In this document: positions 15,838 through 36,472 of the stretch, in pieces
Layout of the letters: the number at the start of each line of letters is the position of its first letter
Position numbering within the stretch: position 1 is the stretch's first letter
Sequence record: FJ373894
Direction: 5' to 3' (one strand)
Source: Shigella phage Ag3
DNA: 64,000 bases
Notes under the pieces: generated by a model
What the model was told of the DNA's origin: nothing
Databases searched by the model: none
What the model saw: only the letters and a program-made list of their open reading frames with translations
Made by a program: the position numbers and the translations under genes

Positions 15838-16122
15838 TTAACTTCTCTCCCAGATGTCTTCCAGGACATCACGCATATTTCTGAGTTCCGGAGTATCACC
15901 GAAGAAAGTTTCCATTTCCCCCTCTTCACCACCCGCCAACAACCAGAATGAGCTGTCAAGGTCTTCTGGGTCTTCTTCGTGGAAGAAACCCTGCTCAACC
16001 ATTTTGATGATAGAAGGTTCGGCGCGCTTGAAGTCCTTTTCTGTCACCACATCAGAGTAGTCGAACTGGTTGTCATAAGACATGATGGAAATGATCTTAT
16101 CAAATATTTCTTTGCTGGTCAT
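15838..16122 (-). CDS. hypothetical acidic protein
   Basis: Start at 16122 after AGGACTATATC; early promoter 16171-16199 upstream. Confidence 0.5.
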   Translation of the reverse strand: MTSKEIFDKIISIMSYDNQFDYSDVVTEKDFKRAEPSIIKMVEQGFFHEEDPEDLDSSFWLLAGGEEGEMETFFGDTPELRNMRDVLEDIWERS

Positions 16123-16592: not shown

Positions 16593-18794
16593 TTAAATTT
16601 TGATCTCTTTCTCTGCCAGTTCGGCAGTGACCTTGTACTTCACACCATCCACTTCAACTTCCATGGTGGACTCTTCCAGGTCGAGGTCGGTGAACCAGCC
16701 GTGGCCAGCAACGATACCATACACCACTTTAGACAGCGTCTTGTTCAGGGCGCGGACTTCGGTGATGGCCGCCTTGGCAGCAGCGTCGATCCAGTTTTCG
16801 ATCAGCTGTTTCTGTACGGCTTCAGGCACGGCAGTGATCGCAGGAGACTTCACGAATGCCTCGTACTCTTTCAGGGCATTGGCGATGAACAAGTCACCCG
16901 CATTGAGTTTCTTGTTCTCGGCAATCTTTTTCTGTACTGCCGCGATGCTAGGCAGAGAAGACGCCCCAGCGATCTTAACGTTCAGCTCACGGCTCATGTA
17001 GACATCCGTGGAGTCCTTCAGTTCGGTCTTCGGTGAGAAGCCGTAATCGCGGATGCCGTAGGAGGACAGGAACTCGGCCGCCTCAGCGCCGTACTGTACT
17101 GCCAGGCCTTTGGCGTTGCCTTTGCCAACCAGTTCATCACGGAAGAACTTCAGCACCTTCTGCTTGCCTTTCAGGGCTTCCAGACGGACGTTGTCAGCAA
17201 AGAACTGAGCAGCACTGATGTTCTTGACCATGGCGCGGTTGACCAGCGGTACGCTTTCCAGGTTCAGGACAAACACTTCCGGACCACCAAACACATGGAC
17301 GCCCATCTGACACAGATTGGTTACAACTTCAACATCAGCCCTGAACGGCAGAGTCTTCACGTTGATGATGCCGTCTTTGACGATGGTGTAGTTGCGCCAC
17401 TGGAAAGTATCCAGTTCTTCAGGCAGACCGAACTTCTTCTGCACGAACTCCGGAATCGCCACAGTGCCGTGTTGGACAGTGCGTACACTGATATTAGGGC
17501 GTTCGGAGTTATAGACCAAATCGCTGATTGGCACAACACCCAGATCGTTGGTAGGTTCGAACGTCGGGTTCCACTCTTCGTGCTCGGCCAGCTTGAGAGC
17601 CAGGGCTTTGCGCTCTTCTTTGGACTCGGCGTTCGCGATCTGTTCTGCCAGCTTGTCTTCGGTATCGTCCAGTTTCTGAGCCGTACCGCGACCGATGCTC
17701 TTGTAGGAGAACATAGGATGTTTGGTAGCAACACACACGCCAGCTTCAGCCAGATACGTCAGCACGTCAACGACGGTCGTCGCATCTTCAGCTGGAACCA
17801 GGTCATAGTCAATACCGTCAACGCCGCGCAGCTGGTCATCAACGATGGCCTGGGTCAGATCAACTTTGATGTTGGAGTAGTCCTGCTTGGTGAAGCAGTT
17901 GCTGTACTGTTTGATGAAGCGAACGTCACCAGTTTTCTTCAGTGCAGCCCACACCAGGTCTGCGTCCATGATGTGTACGCCGTAGAACGCCAGCACGTAT
18001 GCCGCCTGGATGTCCGCCAGTGCATCAAGCTGGTCGATCATGTTAGGATTGACGACCCACAGCTTCGTGACGCTCTCAGGGATGCTCACGTGGCCGATAG
18101 GATGGTCTTCATCCGGCTGTACCGCCAGCACAGTTGCTACGCCGTTTTCAACGTAGATGGCATGATCATACAGCAACGGAACATCAACAACCACTTTCGG
18201 CACCGAGGACTTCAGTACGTTTTCCAGCTCGGTCTGATATTCGGTCTGGCCTTCGGCGAACACGTGAGTCGCGCCGGAACGTTCAGACATCAGAGCCAGC
18301 AGTTCGCGGTTGCAGTACCAGCCGTATTCGATGAATGTGACGTTGTCGAAAGCGGAAGGAAGTTTTTCGGCGGTCTCCAGGATCTCATTGGAGCGCCAGC
18401 AGTTGTCATAACCATCGGTCATGAACGCCAGGTTGTTGACATAGCCAGGCTTCTTCAGACTACGAGCGGTGTCTACAGCCAGACCCAGAGGTTCCACGAA
18501 TCCAGTGCATCCGGACGGTTGTAGGAAGCGGTCGATCAGTTTGTTCAGCTCGCTCAGGTCAGATGCTGCACTAACCTGACGGCCAGCGAACACAGTACCA
18601 AAGTCGCCACGGGATGAGAAATACAGAACACTCACAGTGTCTTCCGGCTTCACCAGAGAAGGCAGGTTCTCCTTCAGATGCTTACGGACTTCAGGGAGCG
18701 CACGGTACATCGAATAAGAGATGTCCACAACGATTACATGGTTGGACGGGGCAGCAGTCGCAACCGCATTCTTAAATTCTAATGATTCAATCAT
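16593..18794 (-). CDS. von Willebrand factor A (VWA) domain protein
   Basis: VIVVDISYSM and FMTDGYDN motifs at N-terminus typical of VWA domains; start moved to ATG at 18794. Confidence 0.6.
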   Translation of the reverse strand: MIESLEFKNAVATAAPSNHVIVVDISYSMYRALPEVRKHLKENLPSLVKPEDTVSVLYFSSRGDFGTVFAGRQVSAASDLSELNKLIDRFLQPSGCTGFVEPLGLAVDTARSLKKPGYVNNLAFMTDGYDNCWRSNEILETAEKLPSAFDNVTFIEYGWYCNRELLALMSERSGATHVFAEGQTEYQTELENVLKSSVPKVVVDVPLLYDHAIYVENGVATVLAVQPDEDHPIGHVSIPESVTKLWVVNPNMIDQLDALADIQAAYVLAFYGVHIMDADLVWAALKKTGDVRFIKQYSNCFTKQDYSNIKVDLTQAIVDDQLRGVDGIDYDLVPAEDATTVVDVLTYLAEAGVCVATKHPMFSYKSIGRGTAQKLDDTEDKLAEQIANAESKEERKALALKLAEHEEWNPTFEPTNDLGVVPISDLVYNSERPNISVRTVQHGTVAIPEFVQKKFGLPEELDTFQWRNYTIVKDGIINVKTLPFRADVEVVTNLCQMGVHVFGGPEVFVLNLESVPLVNRAMVKNISAAQFFADNVRLEALKGKQKVLKFFRDELVGKGNAKGLAVQYGAEAAEFLSSYGIRDYGFSPKTELKDSTDVYMSRELNVKIAGASSLPSIAAVQKKIAENKKLNAGDLFIANALKEYEAFVKSPAITAVPEAVQKQLIENWIDAAAKAAITEVRALNKTLSKVVYGIVAGHGWFTDLDLEESTMEVEVDGVKYKVTAELAEKEIKI

Positions 18795-27998: not shown

Positions 27999-28988
27999 TC
28001 ACTTCCACTTGATGTTGAGCATGACGTTGGTCAGGAAAAACACAGCATGCAGCCAGACATCGCCGACCTGACGGTGTTCAATCTGAGACTGACCACATAC
28101 GCATACCAGATCAGGGATAGACTCATTCTGAACCAGCATCGGCTTCTCTTTATCCTGTGGTACACAGAACTGGAAGAAGCGGGAATAGAAGTCTTCGGTG
28201 ATGTAGTTCTGGTTGTCAGTCACCCACTGCTTCATGCCAGCCCAGTCATTGCCTTTCAGCATATCAACCAACACACCCATGTCGGCAGATTTCAATACGG
28301 CGAGGGCGCGTTCATCGATCTTGCCGTAGGTGGTGACGTTATCCTGTAGGGCACCCATGATGCGGCGGTTATCGGGGAAATGACGTTTGACAATAGCAGC
28401 CAACACAGGAGGGTCATACTCAACACCTTCGCTGCGAAGGATTTCAGCACAGCGGCGCATGAACTGAAGTTTTACCTCATCAGCCTCGGTCTCATTCCAG
28501 ATAAAGTCGATTTCACGGCAACGAGAGCGCAGAGGTTCGTTCACACGCTGCTTGGCGTTGGTGGTCAGGATGAATGAACAGTTCTTGGAGACCTTCTCCA
28601 CAATACCCTTCAGCGACTCCTGTGCCGCCATAGACAGACGCTCTACTTCGTCGAGGATAACGACTTTGCGGCCACCGAATACACTCACACCAGTAGAGTA
28701 CTGAATCACGCGGTCACGGATAACGTCGATGCTGTTGTCCAGGGATGCGTTGATCATCAGTGGTTGCTTACAGCCGATTTCATTACACACGGCCAGGGCA
28801 GAGGTAGTCTTGCCAGTACCAGGCTGAGGGGAGTAGAACAGCATAGACGGGATGTTGCCGTTGCCACTGGTAATGTAGCCATGGATTTTAGCGCGGACGT
28901 CTTGAGGGATGATGATCTCGTCCAGGTTGTCAGGGCGGTACTTGTTTTCCCATGCGTACTGGTCGGAAACGATAGTGATATTAGACAT
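27999..28988 (-). CDS. 44: clamp-loader large subunit gp44 (AAA+)
   Basis: ENKYRP, Walker A PGTGKTT, DEVER box, SRC motif; start moved to 28988. Confidence 0.9.
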   Translation of the reverse strand: MSNITIVSDQYAWENKYRPDNLDEIIIPQDVRAKIHGYITSGNGNIPSMLFYSPQPGTGKTTSALAVCNEIGCKQPLMINASLDNSIDVIRDRVIQYSTGVSVFGGRKVVILDEVERLSMAAQESLKGIVEKVSKNCSFILTTNAKQRVNEPLRSRCREIDFIWNETEADEVKLQFMRRCAEILRSEGVEYDPPVLAAIVKRHFPDNRRIMGALQDNVTTYGKIDERALAVLKSADMGVLVDMLKGNDWAGMKQWVTDNQNYITEDFYSRFFQFCVPQDKEKPMLVQNESIPDLVCVCGQSQIEHRQVGDVWLHAVFFLTNVMLNIKWK

Positions 28989-29069
28989 TTCAGCCTCGTG
29001 TAGAAGAATCATTTCAAATAGGCGGGGAACGCCCCCGCCCACACATTATAGCATCAGGCTGGAGATTGA

Positions 29070-29738
29070 TTACTCAATCTGTGCGCCGACGAAGTAATTG
29101 ATCGTCGCGTCGGATGATTGGAAGTTCACCATCTGCAGCTCAGCGCAGGCACGCAGAGTGTAGTTACCTTCGATCATCTTCAGGTTAGCAACGTCCAGTG
29201 GCATGACGAAGTCCGGCAGCGCAGTTTCACCCAGCTCAACGGTGTAGTTGTTGGAGTTGTCCAGGGTAGTGGTGGTTGCAACCAGGCGAGTTTTGCCACC
29301 CTGAGCAACCAGGCGCACAGTCTTGTGACCGAGGGTAGAACAGGCGCGGGTCAGTTCTTTCATCTTCTCTGGAGTGATGATCGCTTCAAAGTCGACAGAC
29401 GGCAGTTCAATGGTGTCAGCCGGAACAACAGTGAGTTCTTTAGCAGAACGCCAGAATTGCAGCTGAGAGCTTTCGCCTTTCAACAGGATGTAGTCCTGAT
29501 GGAATTCGGCTTTACCGCCTTTGAAGGAAGGCAGGCGCTGGATGGCCAGAAGTTTGGTCAGGTCCAGGATAGGGAACTCAAACGGGAAGTCTTCTTCGAT
29601 CTGTGCCACGGCGATAACAGTAGACGAATCGTTAATGCTGCGCAGCATCTTACCCGGTGTCAGAACGATAGATGGGTTGATGGTCTCAAAGTTGGCCAGC
29701 AACTGGAGTGTACGTTCGGAGAGAGTGATCTCTTGCAT
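29070..29738 (-). CDS. 45: sliding clamp gp45
   Basis: Length and N-terminal LLANFETINPSIVL alignable to T4 gp45 LLKNFATINSGIML; operon position. Confidence 0.85.
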   Translation of the reverse strand: MQEITLSERTLQLLANFETINPSIVLTPGKMLRSINDSSTVIAVAQIEEDFPFEFPILDLTKLLAIQRLPSFKGGKAEFHQDYILLKGESSQLQFWRSAKELTVVPADTIELPSVDFEAIITPEKMKELTRACSTLGHKTVRLVAQGGKTRLVATTTTLDNSNNYTVELGETALPDFVMPLDVANLKMIEGNYTLRACAELQMVNFQSSDATINYFVGAQIE

Positions 29739-30078
29739 TTATGTATCCTCAAAATATAGTGGGGTTCAAGTCATGTTTGACGCAATCTAGTATCGCTGTG
29801 TTGTGCTTATAGAACAAGTGGCAAATTGCGCTACGCGTTATTAATAAATGCCTTCGGCATTTATGGACTTTATTAAAGATAATAACCTTTATTAATCCTA
29901 TTCGCTTCGCTCATAAAACAAATACTCGTTGTTCGTTAACACTCACAACTCGTATAATACCACGCCATTTGTTCAACAGGAAAGCAATTTTTATTCAACA
30001 GCAAAATTAATTTATTTGGTCTAAACATGCACGCGAAATAATATGTATGTCATGTTAACCAACACACGAGAGTAATAT
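29739..30078. promoter_or_regulatory. 340-bp AT-rich intergenic regulatory hub upstream of gp45
   Basis: Longest non-coding stretch in window; contains TTGTTC-N18-TATAAT (plus), TGCTTA box, hairpin AAATGCC-TTCG-GGCATTT; divergent to plus-strand ORF 30079. Confidence 0.5.
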
Positions 30079-30456
30079 ATGAAACAGTTCGTAGGATTAT
30101 ATGCGGTCGGATGCAGTAAGCCAGACGCCATCCTCACCGCAGGGCAATTTGTCACAGGCACCCCAGTTTGTCTGACGCAGCTGGCGTCAGACAAGAACTT
30201 ACCATCGGAGCCGCGATTTGTCCCTCTGGGTTTGATGACAGGCCTGAAAGTTGGTCTGTATGTCGGTGTGGTGACGTTTGAAAACGGCGTCGAAGCGAAG
30301 GTTCTGCCATTCAAATTGGGCAGCGAACAAATGCTGAAGGACACTATCAGTGAACACCTGAACGCACAATGTCTGGTTTCTCTGGACAAATTGTTCGGCG
30401 CAGTATCTGATGAAGGCGAGGCCACCCCCGCCTATGTGAATCAAGATCAGTCGTGA
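30079..30456 (+). CDS. hypothetical protein (plus strand)
   Basis: 125-codon ORF after the AT-rich hub with weak GAGAG RBS; 3' end overlaps uvsW 3' end. Confidence 0.35.
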   Translation: MKQFVGLYAVGCSKPDAILTAGQFVTGTPVCLTQLASDKNLPSEPRFVPLGLMTGLKVGLYVGVVTFENGVEAKVLPFKLGSEQMLKDTISEHLNAQCLVSLDKLFGAVSDEGEATPAYVNQDQS

Positions 30457-31955
30457 TTACCCAGCGCCACCTTCATGAACTCCACAGGGTGGCGCTCTGT
30501 CAGGTAGAACTTGTATCGCTCATGAGAGTGCCTGATAGCGTGGTTCGTGCTGGCGTTGTACGACACATCATCCACTAAGTCCCATATCCACGCGACGTCC
30601 TTGGAGGAGTGCTGACGCATCAGACGACCCAATGTCTGTATGACGCGGATATATGACTTGCTCGGGTGCGCCAGTACAAGGTGGTGTAGCTTCTTGATTG
30701 ACACACCCTGTTGCATTGTCCCGTATGAAGCCAACAACGTGATATCCTCTCCATCCTCCATCGCTTTCTGTATGCGGCGGCGGTCTTCGATCTTCACTTC
30801 CCCGTTGATGACAAACACGTTGGGCTTGACTGCGCTCAGCATATCGTACACAACCATCATGTGGGCGTCAATACGCTCGAACATGATGGCCACGTTCCCT
30901 TTCAGATTCAGTGCCATCTTGGCGATCAGTTCGTTGCGGGACTGGTGTGTAATAAGGTATTCTATTTCCTTGGTATAATCCCCGTCCAGACCAACAGCAT
31001 CCGCCGGAGTGTGCTTTAGCTGAATCATCTTCACTTTGATGTCAGTGGCGTACCCGAGATTGATAAGGTCGCGAGCCGTGATGATCTTATGGTACGCCCC
31101 GAAGTGAGCCACCACCTGAAGCCCGGCAACTTTGGTGTTCGACAGCGTACCTGTAACCCCCAGGCGCTGGTCGGCGTAGATGCAGTTGTTGAGGATATAG
31201 GACAGTTTCTCAGACTTGGAGGTATGCACTTCATCCACCACGATGTCACCGAACTGGTGGAACCATTCCTTCGGCTGGTCTTGAATGCCCTGCCATGTAC
31301 TGATGACGATTGGTTTGCTGATTTCCTTTGTCGCGCCCTCAAAGATCAACTGAGTGTTGGCAACGGGCTTCCAATCGCTGCCGTGTGCGTACTCTTCAAA
31401 GTTGTCGTACAGCTGAGTGACCAGGTGAATCGACGGCACCACGATAAGCGTCTTCAGAGGACTTTCGAGAGCTTCTCTGCGCTGCCTGTAGTACCGCGCC
31501 ATGACATACAGAATAAAGGACTTACCAGCACTCGTAGCCAGTTCACAGACGCATCTGGTTTGACGCATAGCCTTGGCGATGGTGTCGTACTGATAGTCGC
31601 GGGTCTCAGCATCGATGTATTCGTGATTTTCGGTGCGGATCTTTGGATGGAGACTGTCGATGAAGTCATGGATTTCTTGATCTGGGATGTCCTGAATGTA
31701 CTTCAGAGCCGGATCCAGTTCAATGGTGTATTTGTTGTTCTTGCAGAACTTGAACACCTCAAACAGTAGGCCGATATCAATCAGACCGGATGACTTGGTG
31801 AACAAGCGAACAACCCCGTCCCATTTAGAGAAGGGGTTGGGAACGAAGTTCGGGTCTTCGAATTTGAAGTAGTCATTCAGCTCTTCCCTGATAGAAAGAT
31901 CTGCGATGCAACGCATGCGGACTTCGTTAACCTTAACAATCTGAATGTCTGCCAT
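30447..31955 (-). CDS. uvsW: UvsW helicase (SF2, DEVH box)
   Basis: Walker A TSAGKS, DEVH, TWQG...PKEWF, LHHLVLAH, QTLGRLMR align to T4 UvsW; 503 aa after start moved to 31955. Confidence 0.9.
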   Translation of the reverse strand: MADIQIVKVNEVRMRCIADLSIREELNDYFKFEDPNFVPNPFSKWDGVVRLFTKSSGLIDIGLLFEVFKFCKNNKYTIELDPALKYIQDIPDQEIHDFIDSLHPKIRTENHEYIDAETRDYQYDTIAKAMRQTRCVCELATSAGKSFILYVMARYYRQRREALESPLKTLIVVPSIHLVTQLYDNFEEYAHGSDWKPVANTQLIFEGATKEISKPIVISTWQGIQDQPKEWFHQFGDIVVDEVHTSKSEKLSYILNNCIYADQRLGVTGTLSNTKVAGLQVVAHFGAYHKIITARDLINLGYATDIKVKMIQLKHTPADAVGLDGDYTKEIEYLITHQSRNELIAKMALNLKGNVAIMFERIDAHMMVVYDMLSAVKPNVFVINGEVKIEDRRRIQKAMEDGEDITLLASYGTMQQGVSIKKLHHLVLAHPSKSYIRVIQTLGRLMRQHSSKDVAWIWDLVDDVSYNASTNHAIRHSHERYKFYLTERHPVEFMKVALGNHD

Positions 31956-31976
31956 ACAAAATCTCCCAAGATATAT

Positions 31977-31987
31977 GGGGTATTTAG
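31977..31987 (-). promoter_or_regulatory. late promoter motif CTAAATACCCC (uvsW)
   Basis: Minus-strand CGCTAAATACCCC about 25 nt upstream of uvsW ATG. Confidence 0.55.
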
Positions 31988-32730
31988 CGATCCGGCCAGA
32001 CTCCGTTCTGTTCTTTATCCATGCGATGGTACAGACGAACACGCTCAAACATCTTTGCCAGGATGTCATCGCGGTTGAACTCTATGATGGTTGGCGTCAA
32101 CGATGACTCGTTGGCAATCACATTGATGAGGCGGGTGATCTTGACACCGAACATCTGCTGGAACATAACAGAGTACAAGCACAGTTGGATACTGTAGTCC
32201 TCGATCATTCCCCGCGTCTTCATGGTGTTCGATGTCTTGAAGTCGATGATAGCAGGCTTACCCTCATAAACCCCAATAAGGTCCACTCGACCTGCGAGAC
32301 CAAGCACCTCGCTATATAACGGGATCTCCTGAGCATAGATCTTTGTCATCTTGTTCAGATAGGGGAACAGCTGCTTGAACATGAACATGTATTCGCCAGC
32401 CGCTTCCAACACTTCTTTCATTGGGCGGTTCTTCAAATACAGTTCACATGCAAGGTGCAGCTTCTCCCCTCGGTCAGCGCAACGCATGGTCTCAAGGTCG
32501 GCGGCCTCTGCACCCAGCTTCTCCCTCCAAGCCTCAAGCCATTCATGATCACCAGTACGCCCCAGCATCGTCGTTACAGACGTCAGCTTGACACCAGTTG
32601 GTGACACATAATGACGACCGTTCTCCGTCGTCACACACTCCAGTTCCTTATGAGGAAGTTCGTACTGCTGGAATGTGTAATGACGATTTTCGAAGTCGTT
32701 CAGCTTGCGCAGGGCTTGGAGAGATGCCAT
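31984..32730 (-). CDS. PD-(D/E)xK nuclease (RecB/Cas4-like)
   Basis: GRVDLIGV, IIDFKTS (D-x-K) and QLCLY motifs; start moved to 32730, overlapping uvsY stop. Confidence 0.6.
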   Translation of the reverse strand: MASLQALRKLNDFENRHYTFQQYELPHKELECVTTENGRHYVSPTGVKLTSVTTMLGRTGDHEWLEAWREKLGAEAADLETMRCADRGEKLHLACELYLKNRPMKEVLEAAGEYMFMFKQLFPYLNKMTKIYAQEIPLYSEVLGLAGRVDLIGVYEGKPAIIDFKTSNTMKTRGMIEDYSIQLCLYSVMFQQMFGVKITRLINVIANESSLTPTIIEFNRDDILAKMFERVRLYHRMDKEQNGVWPDR

Positions 32731-36131: not shown

Positions 36132-36190
36132 GATAAAGTCCTCTATTTGTAGGGGATAGGGTATGCGGTTAACATACCCCGTTCAAAGGT

Positions 36191-36472
36191 TTAGAACAAA
36201 TGCTCGCCTTCCACATGGTATGCTAACACGCCGTCAGAACATTCAAAATACATGTTATCATATTCCCACAGAGCGGTGATTTCTTCACCCTGGCAAACTA
36301 CCGAAAACTTCGGCTGGCTGGCCTTAACTGGAAATTTTTCAGGGGAAGAGATTGGGGTGAATTTGGCATTTCTGACGGCCATACCAACAAATTGCTGCAA
36401 TGTTACTTTGTAACGAGAGTGGGTGATAGTACCAGCATTCAGAGCTTCGATCAATTGCGCTTTAGTTGTCAT
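36191..36472 (-). CDS. hypothetical protein
   Basis: Start after GGAACTATATC; early promoter 36522-36550 upstream. Confidence 0.5.
   Translation of the reverse strand: MTTKAQLIEALNAGTITHSRYKVTLQQFVGMAVRNAKFTPISSPEKFPVKASQPKFSVVCQGEEITALWEYDNMYFECSDGVLAYHVEGEHLF

What the first reader, a model, noticed from the sequence alone, without database searches (positions are those of the whole stretch)
29739..30456. Long AT-rich regulatory hub upstream of gp45 with a divergent plus-strand ORF
The 340-bp non-coding region is the largest in the window and contains a sigma70-like TTGTTC-N18-TATAAT box on the plus strand, a TGCTTA box resembling T4 middle-promoter MotA boxes, and a short hairpin. It drives the gp45-44-62-regA operon one way and possibly the 125-aa plus-strand ORF the other, whose 3' end overlaps uvsW convergently. 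T4 has rpbA here instead.
Basis: seen in the sequence. Interest (0 to 1): 0.45.

Follow-up and report, generated by a model that had tools for sequence, protein, structure and literature searches.

The report
Divergent promoter region upstream of clamp gene

Summary
Positions 29739-30078 are a 340-bp ORF-free gap at 34% GC (window 50%), the largest and most AT-rich in the window. The TTGTTC-N18-TATAAT box, the TGCTTA, the hairpin and the 125-aa ORF overlapping uvsW by 10 nt are all present.

The window is an Agtrevirus (99.5% to P46FS4), not T4. tblastn finds no MotA or AsiA. TGCTTA lies in a non-conserved promoter spacer.

Comparison across five lineages indicates three promoters:
- P45 on the minus strand: TTGTTCTATA-N13-GATACT.
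- P125 on the plus strand: TTGGTCTAAA-N13-TAATAT.

P45 and P125 belong to a phage-specific class, box GKTCTAWA near -30 plus a sigma70-type -10. It has 4 window hits against 0.29 expected. All six strict genome copies carry xAxxxT exactly 13 nt downstream. The geometry matches T4 middle promoters, but the box differs.

The central ~200 bp is better conserved in Miltonvirus than any flanking gene. It contains an 18-nt motif found only twice per genome. No RNA family, tRNA or covarying structure was found.

ORF125 is a family-restricted protein unrelated to RpbA. All promoter calls are in silico.

The parts
29070..29738 (-). gp45 sliding clamp gene, the leftward target of the control region
   Evidence: 222-aa ORF. 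Annotated as sliding clamp in P46FS4, SKML-39 and MK-13. Weak Pfam gp45-slide_C hit.
29739..29783 (-). Predicted gp45 5' UTR (about 43-45 nt), nearly invariant in Agtre-, Limestone-, Kutter- and Taipeivirus. It contains a GUCA-loop-UGAC mini-hairpin and the ribosome-binding site GAGGA.
   Evidence: Alignments. 0.95 identity to both Kuttervirus and Taipeivirus for 29720-29779. The fold is not more stable than shuffles, z = -0.23. The start-site position is inferred from the -10 hexamer.
29789..29817 (-). P45, the predicted gp45 promoter: box TTGTTCTATA (29817-29808), 13-nt variable spacer, -10 GATACT (29794-29789)
   Evidence: Both hexamers are invariant and the spacer is variable at constant length across Agtre-, Limestone-, Kutter- and Taipeivirus. 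Member of the TTGKTCTAWA class.
29804..29809 (+).
   Evidence: Not conserved: Kuttervirus TAGTTA/CAGTTA, Taipeivirus GGGATA. No MotA or AsiA homologue.
29844..29864 (.). 9-bp hairpin/palindrome ATAAATGCC-TTC-GGCATTTAT, 27 bp upstream of the P45 box
   Evidence: z = -3.6 and -3.8. The stem is kept with a different loop (TGAC) in Kuttervirus. Taipei-, Miltonvirus and L026 have only weak AT-rich palindromes at this place, z about 0.
29868..29896 (.). AT-rich stretch holding two copies of CTTTATTAA spaced 19 bp apart, of variable length between lineages
   Evidence: Direct repeat D3. RPN242 has an extra roughly 19-bp unit and KpS110 lacks about 27 nt here. Part of the least stable 100 bp of the window.
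29897..29914 (+). Two-copy motif CCTATTCGCTTCGCTCAT, the start of the most conserved core
   Evidence: Core TCGCT(T/A)CGCTC is invariant in all 21 distinct sequences, including Miltonvirus and L026. The only other genome copy lies in the 361-bp gap upstream of gp5. Its flanks co-vary between the two loci in three genera.
29929..29958 (+).
   Evidence: In other genera it reads TTGCTC-N17-TATA(A/T/G)T, with variation only at the tolerated fifth position of the -10. The spacer is also invariant. About 10 nt downstream of the -10 are variable.
29968..30005 (+). Direct repeats TTTGTTCAACAGGAAA and TTTATTCAACAGCAAA, 22 bp apart, in the AT-rich stretch between Pc and P125
   Evidence: Repeat family D1. 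The first copy is invariant in the enteric genera and the second is absent in Taipeivirus. The 29965-30085 RNA is no more structured than shuffles, z = +0.92.
30016..30044 (+). P125, the predicted proximal promoter of the 125-aa ORF: box TTGGTCTAAA (30016-30025), 13-nt variable spacer, -10 TAATAT (30039-30044); predicted start near 30051
   Evidence: Box and -10 are invariant and the spacer is variable. Miltonvirus keeps TCTAAAC but has TAG in place of TTG.
30079..30456 (+). ORF125, a family-restricted small protein. GAGAG (30068-30072) precedes the start codon as a likely ribosome-binding site.
30415..30432 (-). GC-rich hairpin GGCGAGGCCACCCCCGCC just downstream of the uvsW stop, inside the ORF125 tail coding sequence; a probable uvsW terminator
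   Evidence: Codon alignment shows near-invariant nucleotides in the enteric genera and a compensated stem in Miltonvirus, GGCCG...CGGCC. A terminator is annotated at the equivalent place in phage Maynard.

Best explanation
The gap is a compound, bidirectional promoter region of an Ackermannviridae phage.

At its two ends lie two back-to-back promoters of one phage-specific class. Each has an 8-10-nt box, (TT)GKTCTAWA, occupying about -35 to -26, then a 13-nt non-conserved spacer, then a sigma70-type -10 (xAxxxT).
- P45 on the minus strand would start gp45 mRNA near 29782, giving a leader of about 44 nt.
- P125 on the plus strand would start ORF125 mRNA near 30051, giving a leader of about 27 nt.

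The geometry is that of T4 middle promoters, an activator box at -30 plus a host -10. The box is different, and no MotA or AsiA is detectable. Either host sigma70 reads the box directly or an unidentified phage factor does.

Between the two promoters lies a roughly 200-bp conserved AT-rich centre with these features:
- a hairpin;
- an AT-rich stretch of variable length;
- an 18-nt motif that occurs only twice in the genome;

I take the centre to be a protein-bound regulatory module: an operator or activator site overlapping Pc that sets the timing of ORF125 and possibly gp45 expression.

Shown: sequence features, their conservation pattern, and motif enrichment. Inferred: all start sites, the factor that reads the box, and the role of the centre.
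For: 1. Identity: the window is an Agtrevirus. Its coordinates equal those of phiSboM-AG3 minus 64000.

2. Promoter-like conservation signature. The P45 and P125 boxes and -10 hexamers are invariant across Agtre-, Limestone-, Kutter- and Taipeivirus, while the spacers differ in sequence but not in length.

3. Class enrichment. TTGKTCTAWA has 4 hits in the window against 0.29 expected; 0 of 100 shuffles reach 4. In the 158.7-kb P46FS4 genome all six strict hits have xAxxxT exactly 13 nt downstream. Five of them lie about 30-50 nt upstream of start codons: ORF30, ORF125, gp45, the ORF after nrdA, and the topoisomerase II large subunit. A seventh, relaxed hit lies upstream of ORF114.

4. Orthologous check at nrdA. 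GGTCTAWA is invariant in three genera while TTG is TTA in two of them and the spacer varies. Miltonvirus P125 likewise keeps TCTAAAC but not TTG. Selection therefore acts on the box, not on a TTGACA-like -35.

5. Pc. Variation is confined to the tolerated -8 position of TATAAT, and the 10 nt after it are variable. Its perfect TATAAT matches the early promoters listed for AG3.

6. Constraint on the centre. In the Miltonvirus comparison, 29880-29959 and 29980-30039 score 0.72-0.80 identity, against 0.41-0.69 for every flanking gene.

7. The two-copy motif has lineage-specific flanks that co-vary between its two loci. That pattern fits one trans-acting binder.

8. No RNA explanation was found: no Rfam family, no tRNA, a weak consensus fold without covariation, and unstructured leaders.
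Against: - No transcription data exist for any member of this family in the literature I could search. Published promoters are in silico only, and none was placed at P45 or P125.
- The class has only about 7 members per genome, and one (window 17519, minus strand) lies inside a long ORF.
- Neighbouring short gaps are as conserved as this one against Kuttervirus (0.86-0.94), so at that distance conservation does not single this gap out.
- Pc's spacer is invariant, which an ordinary promoter does not need, and in Miltonvirus its -35 is displaced by insertions. The core may not be a promoter at all.
- The second copy of the 18-nt motif has no Pc-like promoter after it.
- No candidate box-binding protein was identified.
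Confidence: 0.6

Rival explanations
1. The conserved AT-rich centre (roughly 29840-30040) is a replication origin of the T4 oriF/oriG or oriE kind. A promoter (Pc) would fire into an easily unwound AT-rich stretch and leave an R-loop primer, or the two-copy motif would bind an initiator. The flanking promoters would then be ordinary neighbours.
For: [quoted passage not shown]
- Here an early-type promoter faces a 31%-GC stretch whose RNA is unstructured, z = +0.92.
- The gap holds the least stable duplex in the window.
- It sits among replication genes: clamp, clamp loader, uvsW, uvsY.
- The 18-nt motif occurs exactly twice per genome, each time after a hairpin and an AT-rich run. The second copy is next to gp5, and T4 oriE is annotated inside gene 5.
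- The core is more conserved than any nearby gene in Miltonvirus.
Against: - There is no direct evidence of initiation.
- Cumulative GC and AT skew of the genome turn only at the 106-kb strand switch, with nothing at either gap. Skew is uninformative for T4-type replication, however.
- The least stable 100 bp lies upstream, not downstream, of Pc.
- The second motif copy is followed by GC-richer, structured sequence rather than by a promoter plus an AT-rich element.
- The positional parallel with T4 origins is loose: uvsY is about 2.7 kb away.
- No iteron array was found beyond two or three short repeats.
Confidence: 0.18
2. The centre encodes a small non-coding RNA, on either strand, or a structured leader that regulates gp45 or ORF125 after transcription, for example as a RegA target.
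For: - The sequence is conserved at gene-like levels with 1-2-nt indels, so it is not coding.
- A significant hairpin is present.
- regA is encoded four genes away.
- The other locus carrying the 18-nt motif has a conserved region with a reasonable consensus fold, -31 kcal/mol, in which the motif pairs with AGCGAG.
Against: - No Rfam match better than E = 3.9, and no tRNA or tmRNA.
- The consensus fold of the gap is -10.5 kcal/mol over 340 nt, with 3 of 39 pairs compensated and most pairs invariant.
- Predicted leaders fold no better than shuffles.
- No terminator lies between Pc and ORF125.
- The hairpin lies upstream of all three predicted start sites, and it is not structurally conserved beyond Aglimvirinae and Kuttervirus.
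Confidence: 0.08
3. One reading: a T4-style hub in which a MotA-box middle promoter (TGCTTA) and the TTGTTC-N18-TATAAT box drive the gp45-44-62-regA operon leftward and ORF125 rightward.
For: - The sequence strings exist.
- The LIMEstone1 record also marks 'putative middle promoters' here, on the basis of T4 consensus searches.
- The phage has T4-like gp55, gp33, gp45 and RegA.
Against: - TGCTTA is not conserved, lies on the plus strand, and is inside the spacer of another promoter.
- No MotA or AsiA is present.
- TTGTTC-N18-TATAAT faces away from gp45.
- A hairpin and a separate TGcTATAAT lie between gp45 and gp44.
Confidence: 0.04

Closest known systems
T4 middle (MotA/AsiA-dependent) promoters
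   Same: Two-part architecture. A conserved box centred near -30 takes the place of a canonical -35, followed at a fixed 12-13 bp by a sigma70-type -10 (TAnnnT). The promoters serve replication and nucleotide-metabolism genes: clamp, nrd region, topoisomerase II (PMC3016281).
   Different: The box is GKTCTAWA, not (a/t)(a/t)(a/t)TGCTTtA. The genome has no detectable MotA or AsiA. The factor, if any, is unknown. No experimental mapping exists.
T4 replication origins oriF/oriG (promoter plus downstream unwinding element) and oriE
   Same: An AT-rich element of about 100-200 bp with a sigma70 -10 promoter facing unstructured AT-rich DNA, located among replication and recombination genes. There are only two related copies per genome, one beside the gp5 homologue, as T4 oriE lies in gene 5.
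   Different: No functional evidence and no skew signal. The shared element is a specific 18-nt motif, whereas T4 origins share no sequence motif. The second copy lacks a matching promoter.
T4 rpbA-45-44-62-regA region
   Same: Gene order 45-44-62-regA and the presence of a small gene of about 125-129 aa directly upstream of 45.
   Different: ORF125 is divergent rather than co-directional, and it has no similarity to RpbA. It is separated from 45 by 340 bp, against 55 bp in T4. The upstream neighbour here is uvsW, not 45.2/46.
T4 gp45 clamp-interaction motif (LDFLF; gp43 C-terminus EKASLDFLFG, internal loop of T4 DNA ligase)
   Same: ORF125 carries a near-invariant S-L-D-x-L-F-G (SLDKLFG here, SLDFLFG in homologue P0021) next to a disordered tail. 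Its gene is adjacent to the clamp gene.
   Different: In the AF2 model the motif closes a folded helix, 18 residues before the stop. This phage's own polymerase ends ...RRVNLLAMMQKKKG and its gp33 homologue ends ...LKSKKLV, so the phage's known clamp partners do not use LDFLF. No binding was tested.

Membership tests
T4-type MotA-dependent middle promoter | MotA box (a/t)(a/t)(a/t)TGCTTtA centred at about -30 | tested here: not met
   The only TGCTTA (29804-29809, plus strand) is not conserved and lies in the P45 spacer. The conserved box at -30 of P45 and P125 is GKTCTAWA.
T4-type MotA-dependent middle promoter | Sigma70-type -10 (TAnnnT) 11-13 bp downstream of the box | tested here: met
   GATACT and TAATAT lie exactly 13 nt after the 10-mer. 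All six strict genome copies have xAxxxT at that spacing.
T4-type MotA-dependent middle promoter | The phage encodes MotA activator and AsiA co-activator | tested here: not met
   tblastn of T4 MotA and AsiA against the whole 158.7-kb P46FS4 genome gives best E 5.1 and 0.039. None is annotated. Remote structural analogues were not searched.
   TTGTTC (3 of 6), N18, TATAAT (6 of 6). Other genera have TTGCTC-N17-TATA(A/T/G)T. This falls below the tool's own threshold of at least 4 of 6 in the -35.
   No transcriptome or start-site data for Ackermannviridae were found.
T4 oriF/oriG-type origin | Promoter followed by an A+T-rich unwinding element | tested here: inconclusive
   Pc faces roughly 31%-GC unstructured sequence. 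The minimum of duplex stability (29859-29958) lies upstream of Pc.
T4 oriF/oriG-type origin | Persistent R-loop, or autonomous replication of the fragment in infected cells | not testable with these tools
   This requires wet-lab assays. GC and AT skew give no signal.
Described non-coding RNA family (Rfam 15) or tRNA | Covariance-model match at or near the gathering score | tested here: not met
   Best hit is MIR2617, 19.3 bits against a gathering score of 46.5, E 3.9. ARAGORN finds none.
T4 RpbA (RNA polymerase-binding protein) | Sequence similarity to RpbA | tested here: not met
   BLASTP gives no alignment at E <= 100. No Pfam or NCBIfam family.
gp45 clamp-interacting proteins (LDFLF motif) | An exposed LDFLF-type motif that binds the cognate clamp | tested here: inconclusive
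   SLDKLFG is present and near-invariant. It is modelled as the end of a helix, and the motif is absent from this phage's polymerase and gp33. Binding was not testable.

The most novel reading that the evidence does not exclude
The conserved centre of this gap and its sister element upstream of gp5 are the two replication origins of Ackermannviridae. Both share the motif CCTAYTCGCT..GCTCRT preceded by a hairpin and an AT-rich run. In this gap the origin would be fired from the early-type promoter Pc, or by a factor binding the two-copy motif, flanked by a new activator-type ('middle-like') promoter class, GKTCTAWA-N13-TAnnnT, that works without MotA/AsiA.
Probability: 0.15. Interest if true: 0.7.

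Novelty: new variant of a known kind. Interest (0 to 1): 0.4.

Why it matters
Ackermannviridae (ViI, CBA120, AG3, LIMEstone and relatives) are widely used biocontrol and therapy phages. In the literature I could search, their transcription programme and replication origins have never been mapped. Published promoters are consensus guesses based on E. coli or T4.

A conserved box-plus-minus-10 promoter class that lacks the T4 activator pair would give a concrete handle on how these phages time their replication genes. It is a defined sequence for pull-downs, reporters and start-site mapping.

The two-copy motif flags two loci worth testing as origins or master regulatory sites. If neither idea holds, the finding is an ordinary divergent promoter region, and the main value is the corrected annotation: not T4, no MotA box, ORF125 is not RpbA.

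Tried and rejected
- Rfam at a permissive E-value on the gap returned only a chance miRNA hit. ARAGORN returned nothing.
- RNAalifold on nine sequences gave -10.5 kcal/mol with essentially no covariation. The predicted leaders of gp45 and ORF125 and the Pc transcript fold no better than shuffles.
- Hairpin conservation beyond Aglimvirinae and Kuttervirus: other lineages have only weak AT palindromes, z about 0. I dropped the claim of a structurally conserved hairpin.
- k-mer search of the gap against the rest of the window found only chance-level 10-12-mers.
- T4 late-promoter idea for Pc: TATAAATA contexts in the genome are few. One (gp2) shares CAACTCnTATAA with Pc, but Pc reads TATAATAC, and TATATTAC or TATAGTAC in other genera. 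Rejected.
- ORF125:
  - no Pfam or NCBIfam family;
  - BFVD finds only orthologues, some mislabelled 'clamp loader subunit';
  - not gp33, because a separate gp33 homologue exists.
- Clamp-binding idea for ORF125: it was weakened when this phage's polymerase and gp33 tails turned out to lack LDFLF.
- A 14-mer scan of viral contigs for the core motif was too unspecific to use.
- GC and AT skew gave no origin signal.
- Literature searches for Ackermannviridae transcriptomes, start sites, origins or the box sequence found nothing relevant.
It was rerun without that row.
Full report
**What the window is.**
The 1.6 kb around the finding is 99.5% identical to Salmonella phage P46FS4. It is 99.1-99.4% identical to SKML-39 and Shigella phage MK-13. 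All three are Ackermannviridae, subfamily Aglimvirinae, genus Agtrevirus. The gene coordinates equal those published for phiSboM-AG3 minus 64000. This is therefore a ViI-like phage with T4-like replication genes, not a T4 relative in the strict sense. The local order on the minus strand is uvsY, exonuclease, uvsW, then gp45, gp44, gp62, regA. A single plus-strand gene, ORF125, is wedged between uvsW and gp45.

**Checking the observation.**
- Positions 29739-30078 are 340 bp without a plausible ORF. This is the largest such gap in the window by a crude gene call.
- The gap contains the most AT-rich 200 bp (30% GC against 50.3% for the window).
- It also contains the least stable 100-bp duplex, although other sites come close.
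- TTGTTC (29929-29934), N18, TATAAT (29953-29958) is on the plus strand.
- TGCTTA is at 29804-29809.
- The hairpin ATAAATGCC-TTC-GGCATTTAT is at 29844-29864, with z about -3.7 on either strand.
- ORF125 (30079-30456) overlaps the uvsW stop by 10 nt.
- T4 does carry rpbA upstream of gene 45.

**Is the gap functional?**
The 340 bp are found in 271 phage records:
- 96-100% identity in Agtrevirus and Limestonevirus;
- about 80% in Kuttervirus;
- about 73% in Taipeivirus.

Against Kuttervirus the gap is 0.79-0.81 identical in pairwise alignments. That compares with 0.55 for gp45 third codon positions and 0.56 for ORF125 DNA.

This is not unique at that distance. Short neighbouring gaps are 0.86-0.94 identical.

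The sharper signal comes from Miltonvirus, where the clamp protein is only 54% identical. There, 29880-29959 and 29980-30039 keep 0.72-0.80 identity, while every flanking gene scores 0.41-0.69. A long gap persists in Miltonvirus (394 bp). One of about 290 bp persists in a Vibrio relative that lacks ORF125.

The multi-genus alignments show the classic promoter signature twice: two short invariant blocks separated by a spacer that varies in sequence but not in length.
- Minus strand: TTGTTCTATA (29817-29808), 13 variable nt, GATACT (29794-29789). This predicts a start near 29782 and a gp45 leader of about 44 nt.
- Plus strand: TTGGTCTAAA (30016-30025), 13 variable nt, TAATAT (30039-30044). This predicts a start near 30051, 27 nt before the ORF125 ATG, with GAGAG as the likely ribosome-binding site.

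**A phage-specific promoter class.**
- The 10-mer TTGKTCTAWA occurs 4 times in the window against 0.29 expected; none of 100 shuffles reaches 4.
- In the complete P46FS4 genome the six strict copies all have xAxxxT exactly 13 nt downstream.
- Five of the six lie about 30-50 nt upstream of start codons: ORF30, ORF125, gp45, the ORF after nrdA, and the topoisomerase II large subunit.
- A relaxed seventh copy precedes ORF114. One strict copy lies inside a long ORF.
- At the nrdA-downstream site, GGTCTAWA is invariant in Agtre-, Taipei- and Kuttervirus. TTG becomes TTA in two genera and the spacer varies.
- In Miltonvirus P125 keeps TCTAAAC but has TAG for TTG.

Selection therefore acts on a box centred near -30, not on a TTGACA-like -35. 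That geometry is the geometry of T4 MotA-dependent middle promoters (PMC3016281). However, the box sequence differs. T4 MotA and AsiA have no tblastn match in the genome (best E 5.1 and 0.039), and none is annotated. I conclude that the promoters work like T4 middle promoters but are not members of that family. Whether host sigma70 alone or an unknown phage factor reads the box remains open.

In the other genera it reads TTGCTC-N17-TATA(A/T/G)T. The only variable position of the -10 is the one sigma70 tolerates best. The roughly 10 nt after it are variable, as expected around a start site. Its perfect TATAAT resembles the early promoters tabulated for AG3, none of which was placed in this gap. 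Pc faces ORF125, not gp45, and would add a 113-nt AT-rich leader that is no more structured than shuffled sequence, z = +0.92.

Two facts do not fit a plain promoter. Its spacer is invariant in the enteric genera. In Miltonvirus, insertions displace the -35 while the surrounding CTCG-rich blocks stay conserved.

**The conserved core and a two-copy motif.**
The blocks TCGCT(T/A)CGCTC, then CTCGTT, then TCGC...GCTC..ACAACTCG(T/A)ATA are kept in all 21 distinct sequences I collected, including Miltonvirus and a 164-kb relative.

The first block, CCTATTCGCTTCGCTCAT (29897-29914), occurs exactly once more in the 158.7-kb genome. That copy is in the other roughly 360-bp gap, upstream of the gp5 baseplate-hub gene, and it is again preceded by a hairpin and a T-rich run. 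The second gap is also conserved family-wide.

In each of three genera the flanks of the motif are the same at both loci but differ between genera:
- Agtrevirus: TAT-TCGC...GCTCAT
- Kuttervirus: TAC-TCGC...GCTCGT
- Taipeivirus: AAC-TCGC...GCTCGT

That co-variation fits one trans-acting binder or gene conversion between the copies. Similarity between the two gaps does not extend beyond about 30 nt.

**RNA explanations.**
- Rfam gives nothing better than E = 3.9.
- There is no tRNA or tmRNA.
- The consensus fold of the gap is weak and lacks covariation.
- No terminator separates Pc from ORF125.
- The 9-bp hairpin is significant, and Kuttervirus keeps it with a different loop. Other lineages have only weak AT palindromes there.
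- The hairpin lies upstream of all three predicted start sites, so it cannot be part of those transcripts. It may block read-through from uvsW or be a protein site. I could not decide between these.

**Origin hypothesis.**
T4 oriF and oriG are about 100 bp, a promoter with a sigma70 -10 plus an AT-rich unwinding element. oriE uses an early promoter and is annotated inside gene 5. UvsW dissolves the R-loops.

Several features here are suggestive:
- an early-type promoter facing unstructured AT-rich DNA;
- the duplex-stability minimum of the window;
- the replication-gene neighbourhood;
- a motif with just two genomic copies, one beside gp5.

Against it:
- Skew shows nothing, though skew is uninformative for T4-type replication.
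- The stability minimum is upstream of Pc.
- The second motif copy is not followed by a comparable promoter.
- Nothing functional can be tested here.

I give this hypothesis about 0.15-0.2.

**ORF125.**
It is a real, family-restricted gene.
- PHROG 4255, function unknown.
- No Pfam or NCBIfam family.
- 33 homologues, all from Ackermannviridae-like contigs.
- It has no similarity to T4 RpbA.
- It is not gp33, because a separate gp33 homologue exists.
- AlphaFold (pLDDT 80.8) gives a small alpha/beta domain, a C-terminal helix and a disordered tail.

Three invariant pieces stand out: MKQFVGLYAVG, S-L-D-x-L-F-G, and the tail GEATPAYVNQ.

SLDKLFG resembles the T4 clamp-interaction motif: gp43 ends in SLDFLFG, and the motif is documented in PMC6212786. 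But this phage's own polymerase and gp33 tails lack it, so clamp binding is only a lead.

Part of the tail's DNA invariance is explained by a GC-rich hairpin (30415-30432) just after the uvsW stop. The stem is compensated in Miltonvirus, and a terminator is annotated at the equivalent place in phage Maynard.

**Operon claim.**
Between gp45 and gp44 (minus strand, 28989-29069) there is a TGcTATAAT followed by GGGCGGGGGCGTTCCCCGCC. The AG3 authors listed this hairpin as a -18.8 kcal/mol terminator. The gp45 transcript may therefore largely end before gp44, and gp44-62-regA may have their own start.

**Verdict.**
The best reading is two back-to-back members of a new box-plus-minus-10 promoter class, flanking a conserved AT-rich centre with an early-type promoter and a two-copy motif whose role (regulatory site or origin) is unresolved. 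All promoter assignments are inferences from conservation and motif statistics. No transcript data exist in the literature I could search.

Noticed in passing
L014:33705-34065 (P46FS4 83705-84065; outside this window): A second gap of about 360 bp, upstream of the gp5 baseplate-hub gene, carries the only other genome copy of CCTATTCGCTTCGCTCAT, again after a hairpin and a T-rich run. Its downstream 100-250 nt are highly conserved in three genera and give a consensus fold of -31 kcal/mol in which the motif pairs with AGCGAG. No Rfam family matches. It may be an unannotated ncRNA or an origin-like element.
   Followed up: partly
window 36190-36199 (-) and 17510-17519 (-): Two further copies of the TTGKTCTAWA-N13-xAxxxT promoter class. 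The first lies in a gap about 30 nt upstream of a small gene (P46FS4 ORF30). The second lies inside a long ORF (P46FS4 ORF53) about 930 bp before an acyl-carrier-protein gene.
   Followed up: partly
window 28989-29069 (-): The gp45-gp44 gap has an extended -10 (TGcTATAAT) immediately followed by the hairpin GGGCGGGGGCGTTCCCCGCC and a weak T-tract. This looks like a promoter and terminator packed together between the clamp and clamp-loader genes. The gp44 start is probably the ATG at 28988, not the GTG at 29042 that the ORF lister gives.
   Followed up: partly
window 30415-30432: A probable uvsW terminator hairpin is embedded in the coding sequence for the invariant ORF125 tail (GEATPA), so the same bases are constrained as protein and as RNA/DNA structure. 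Miltonvirus keeps both through compensatory changes.
   Followed up: partly
window 30447-32069 (-): The ORF lister extends uvsW to 540 aa. Related records annotate 502 aa (1509 nt), which would put the start near 31955. In LIMEstone1 the uvsW gene is split by a homing-endonuclease/intron element (I-LimI) that is absent here.
   Followed up: no
window near 15915 (-): A 99-aa open frame ends in a very acidic tail, ...GGEEGEMETFFGDTPELRNMRDVLEDIWERS. It contains a hydrophobic xFFG motif that loosely resembles clamp- or polymerase-interaction peptides.
   Followed up: no
L006:1498-1858 (Escherichia phage RPN242): The roughly 19-bp AT-rich unit (CTTTATTAAAGATAATAAC) present twice in the window is present three times in RPN242 and is largely deleted in Taipeivirus KpS110. 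The distance between the hairpin and the two-copy motif is therefore not fixed.
   Followed up: yes
several public records (e.g. aagejoakim, Det7, FSL SP-063, STP07): Orthologues of ORF125 are annotated 'clamp loader subunit' in several records and in UniRef. No sequence or fold evidence found here supports this. It looks like annotation carried over from the neighbouring genes.
   Followed up: partly
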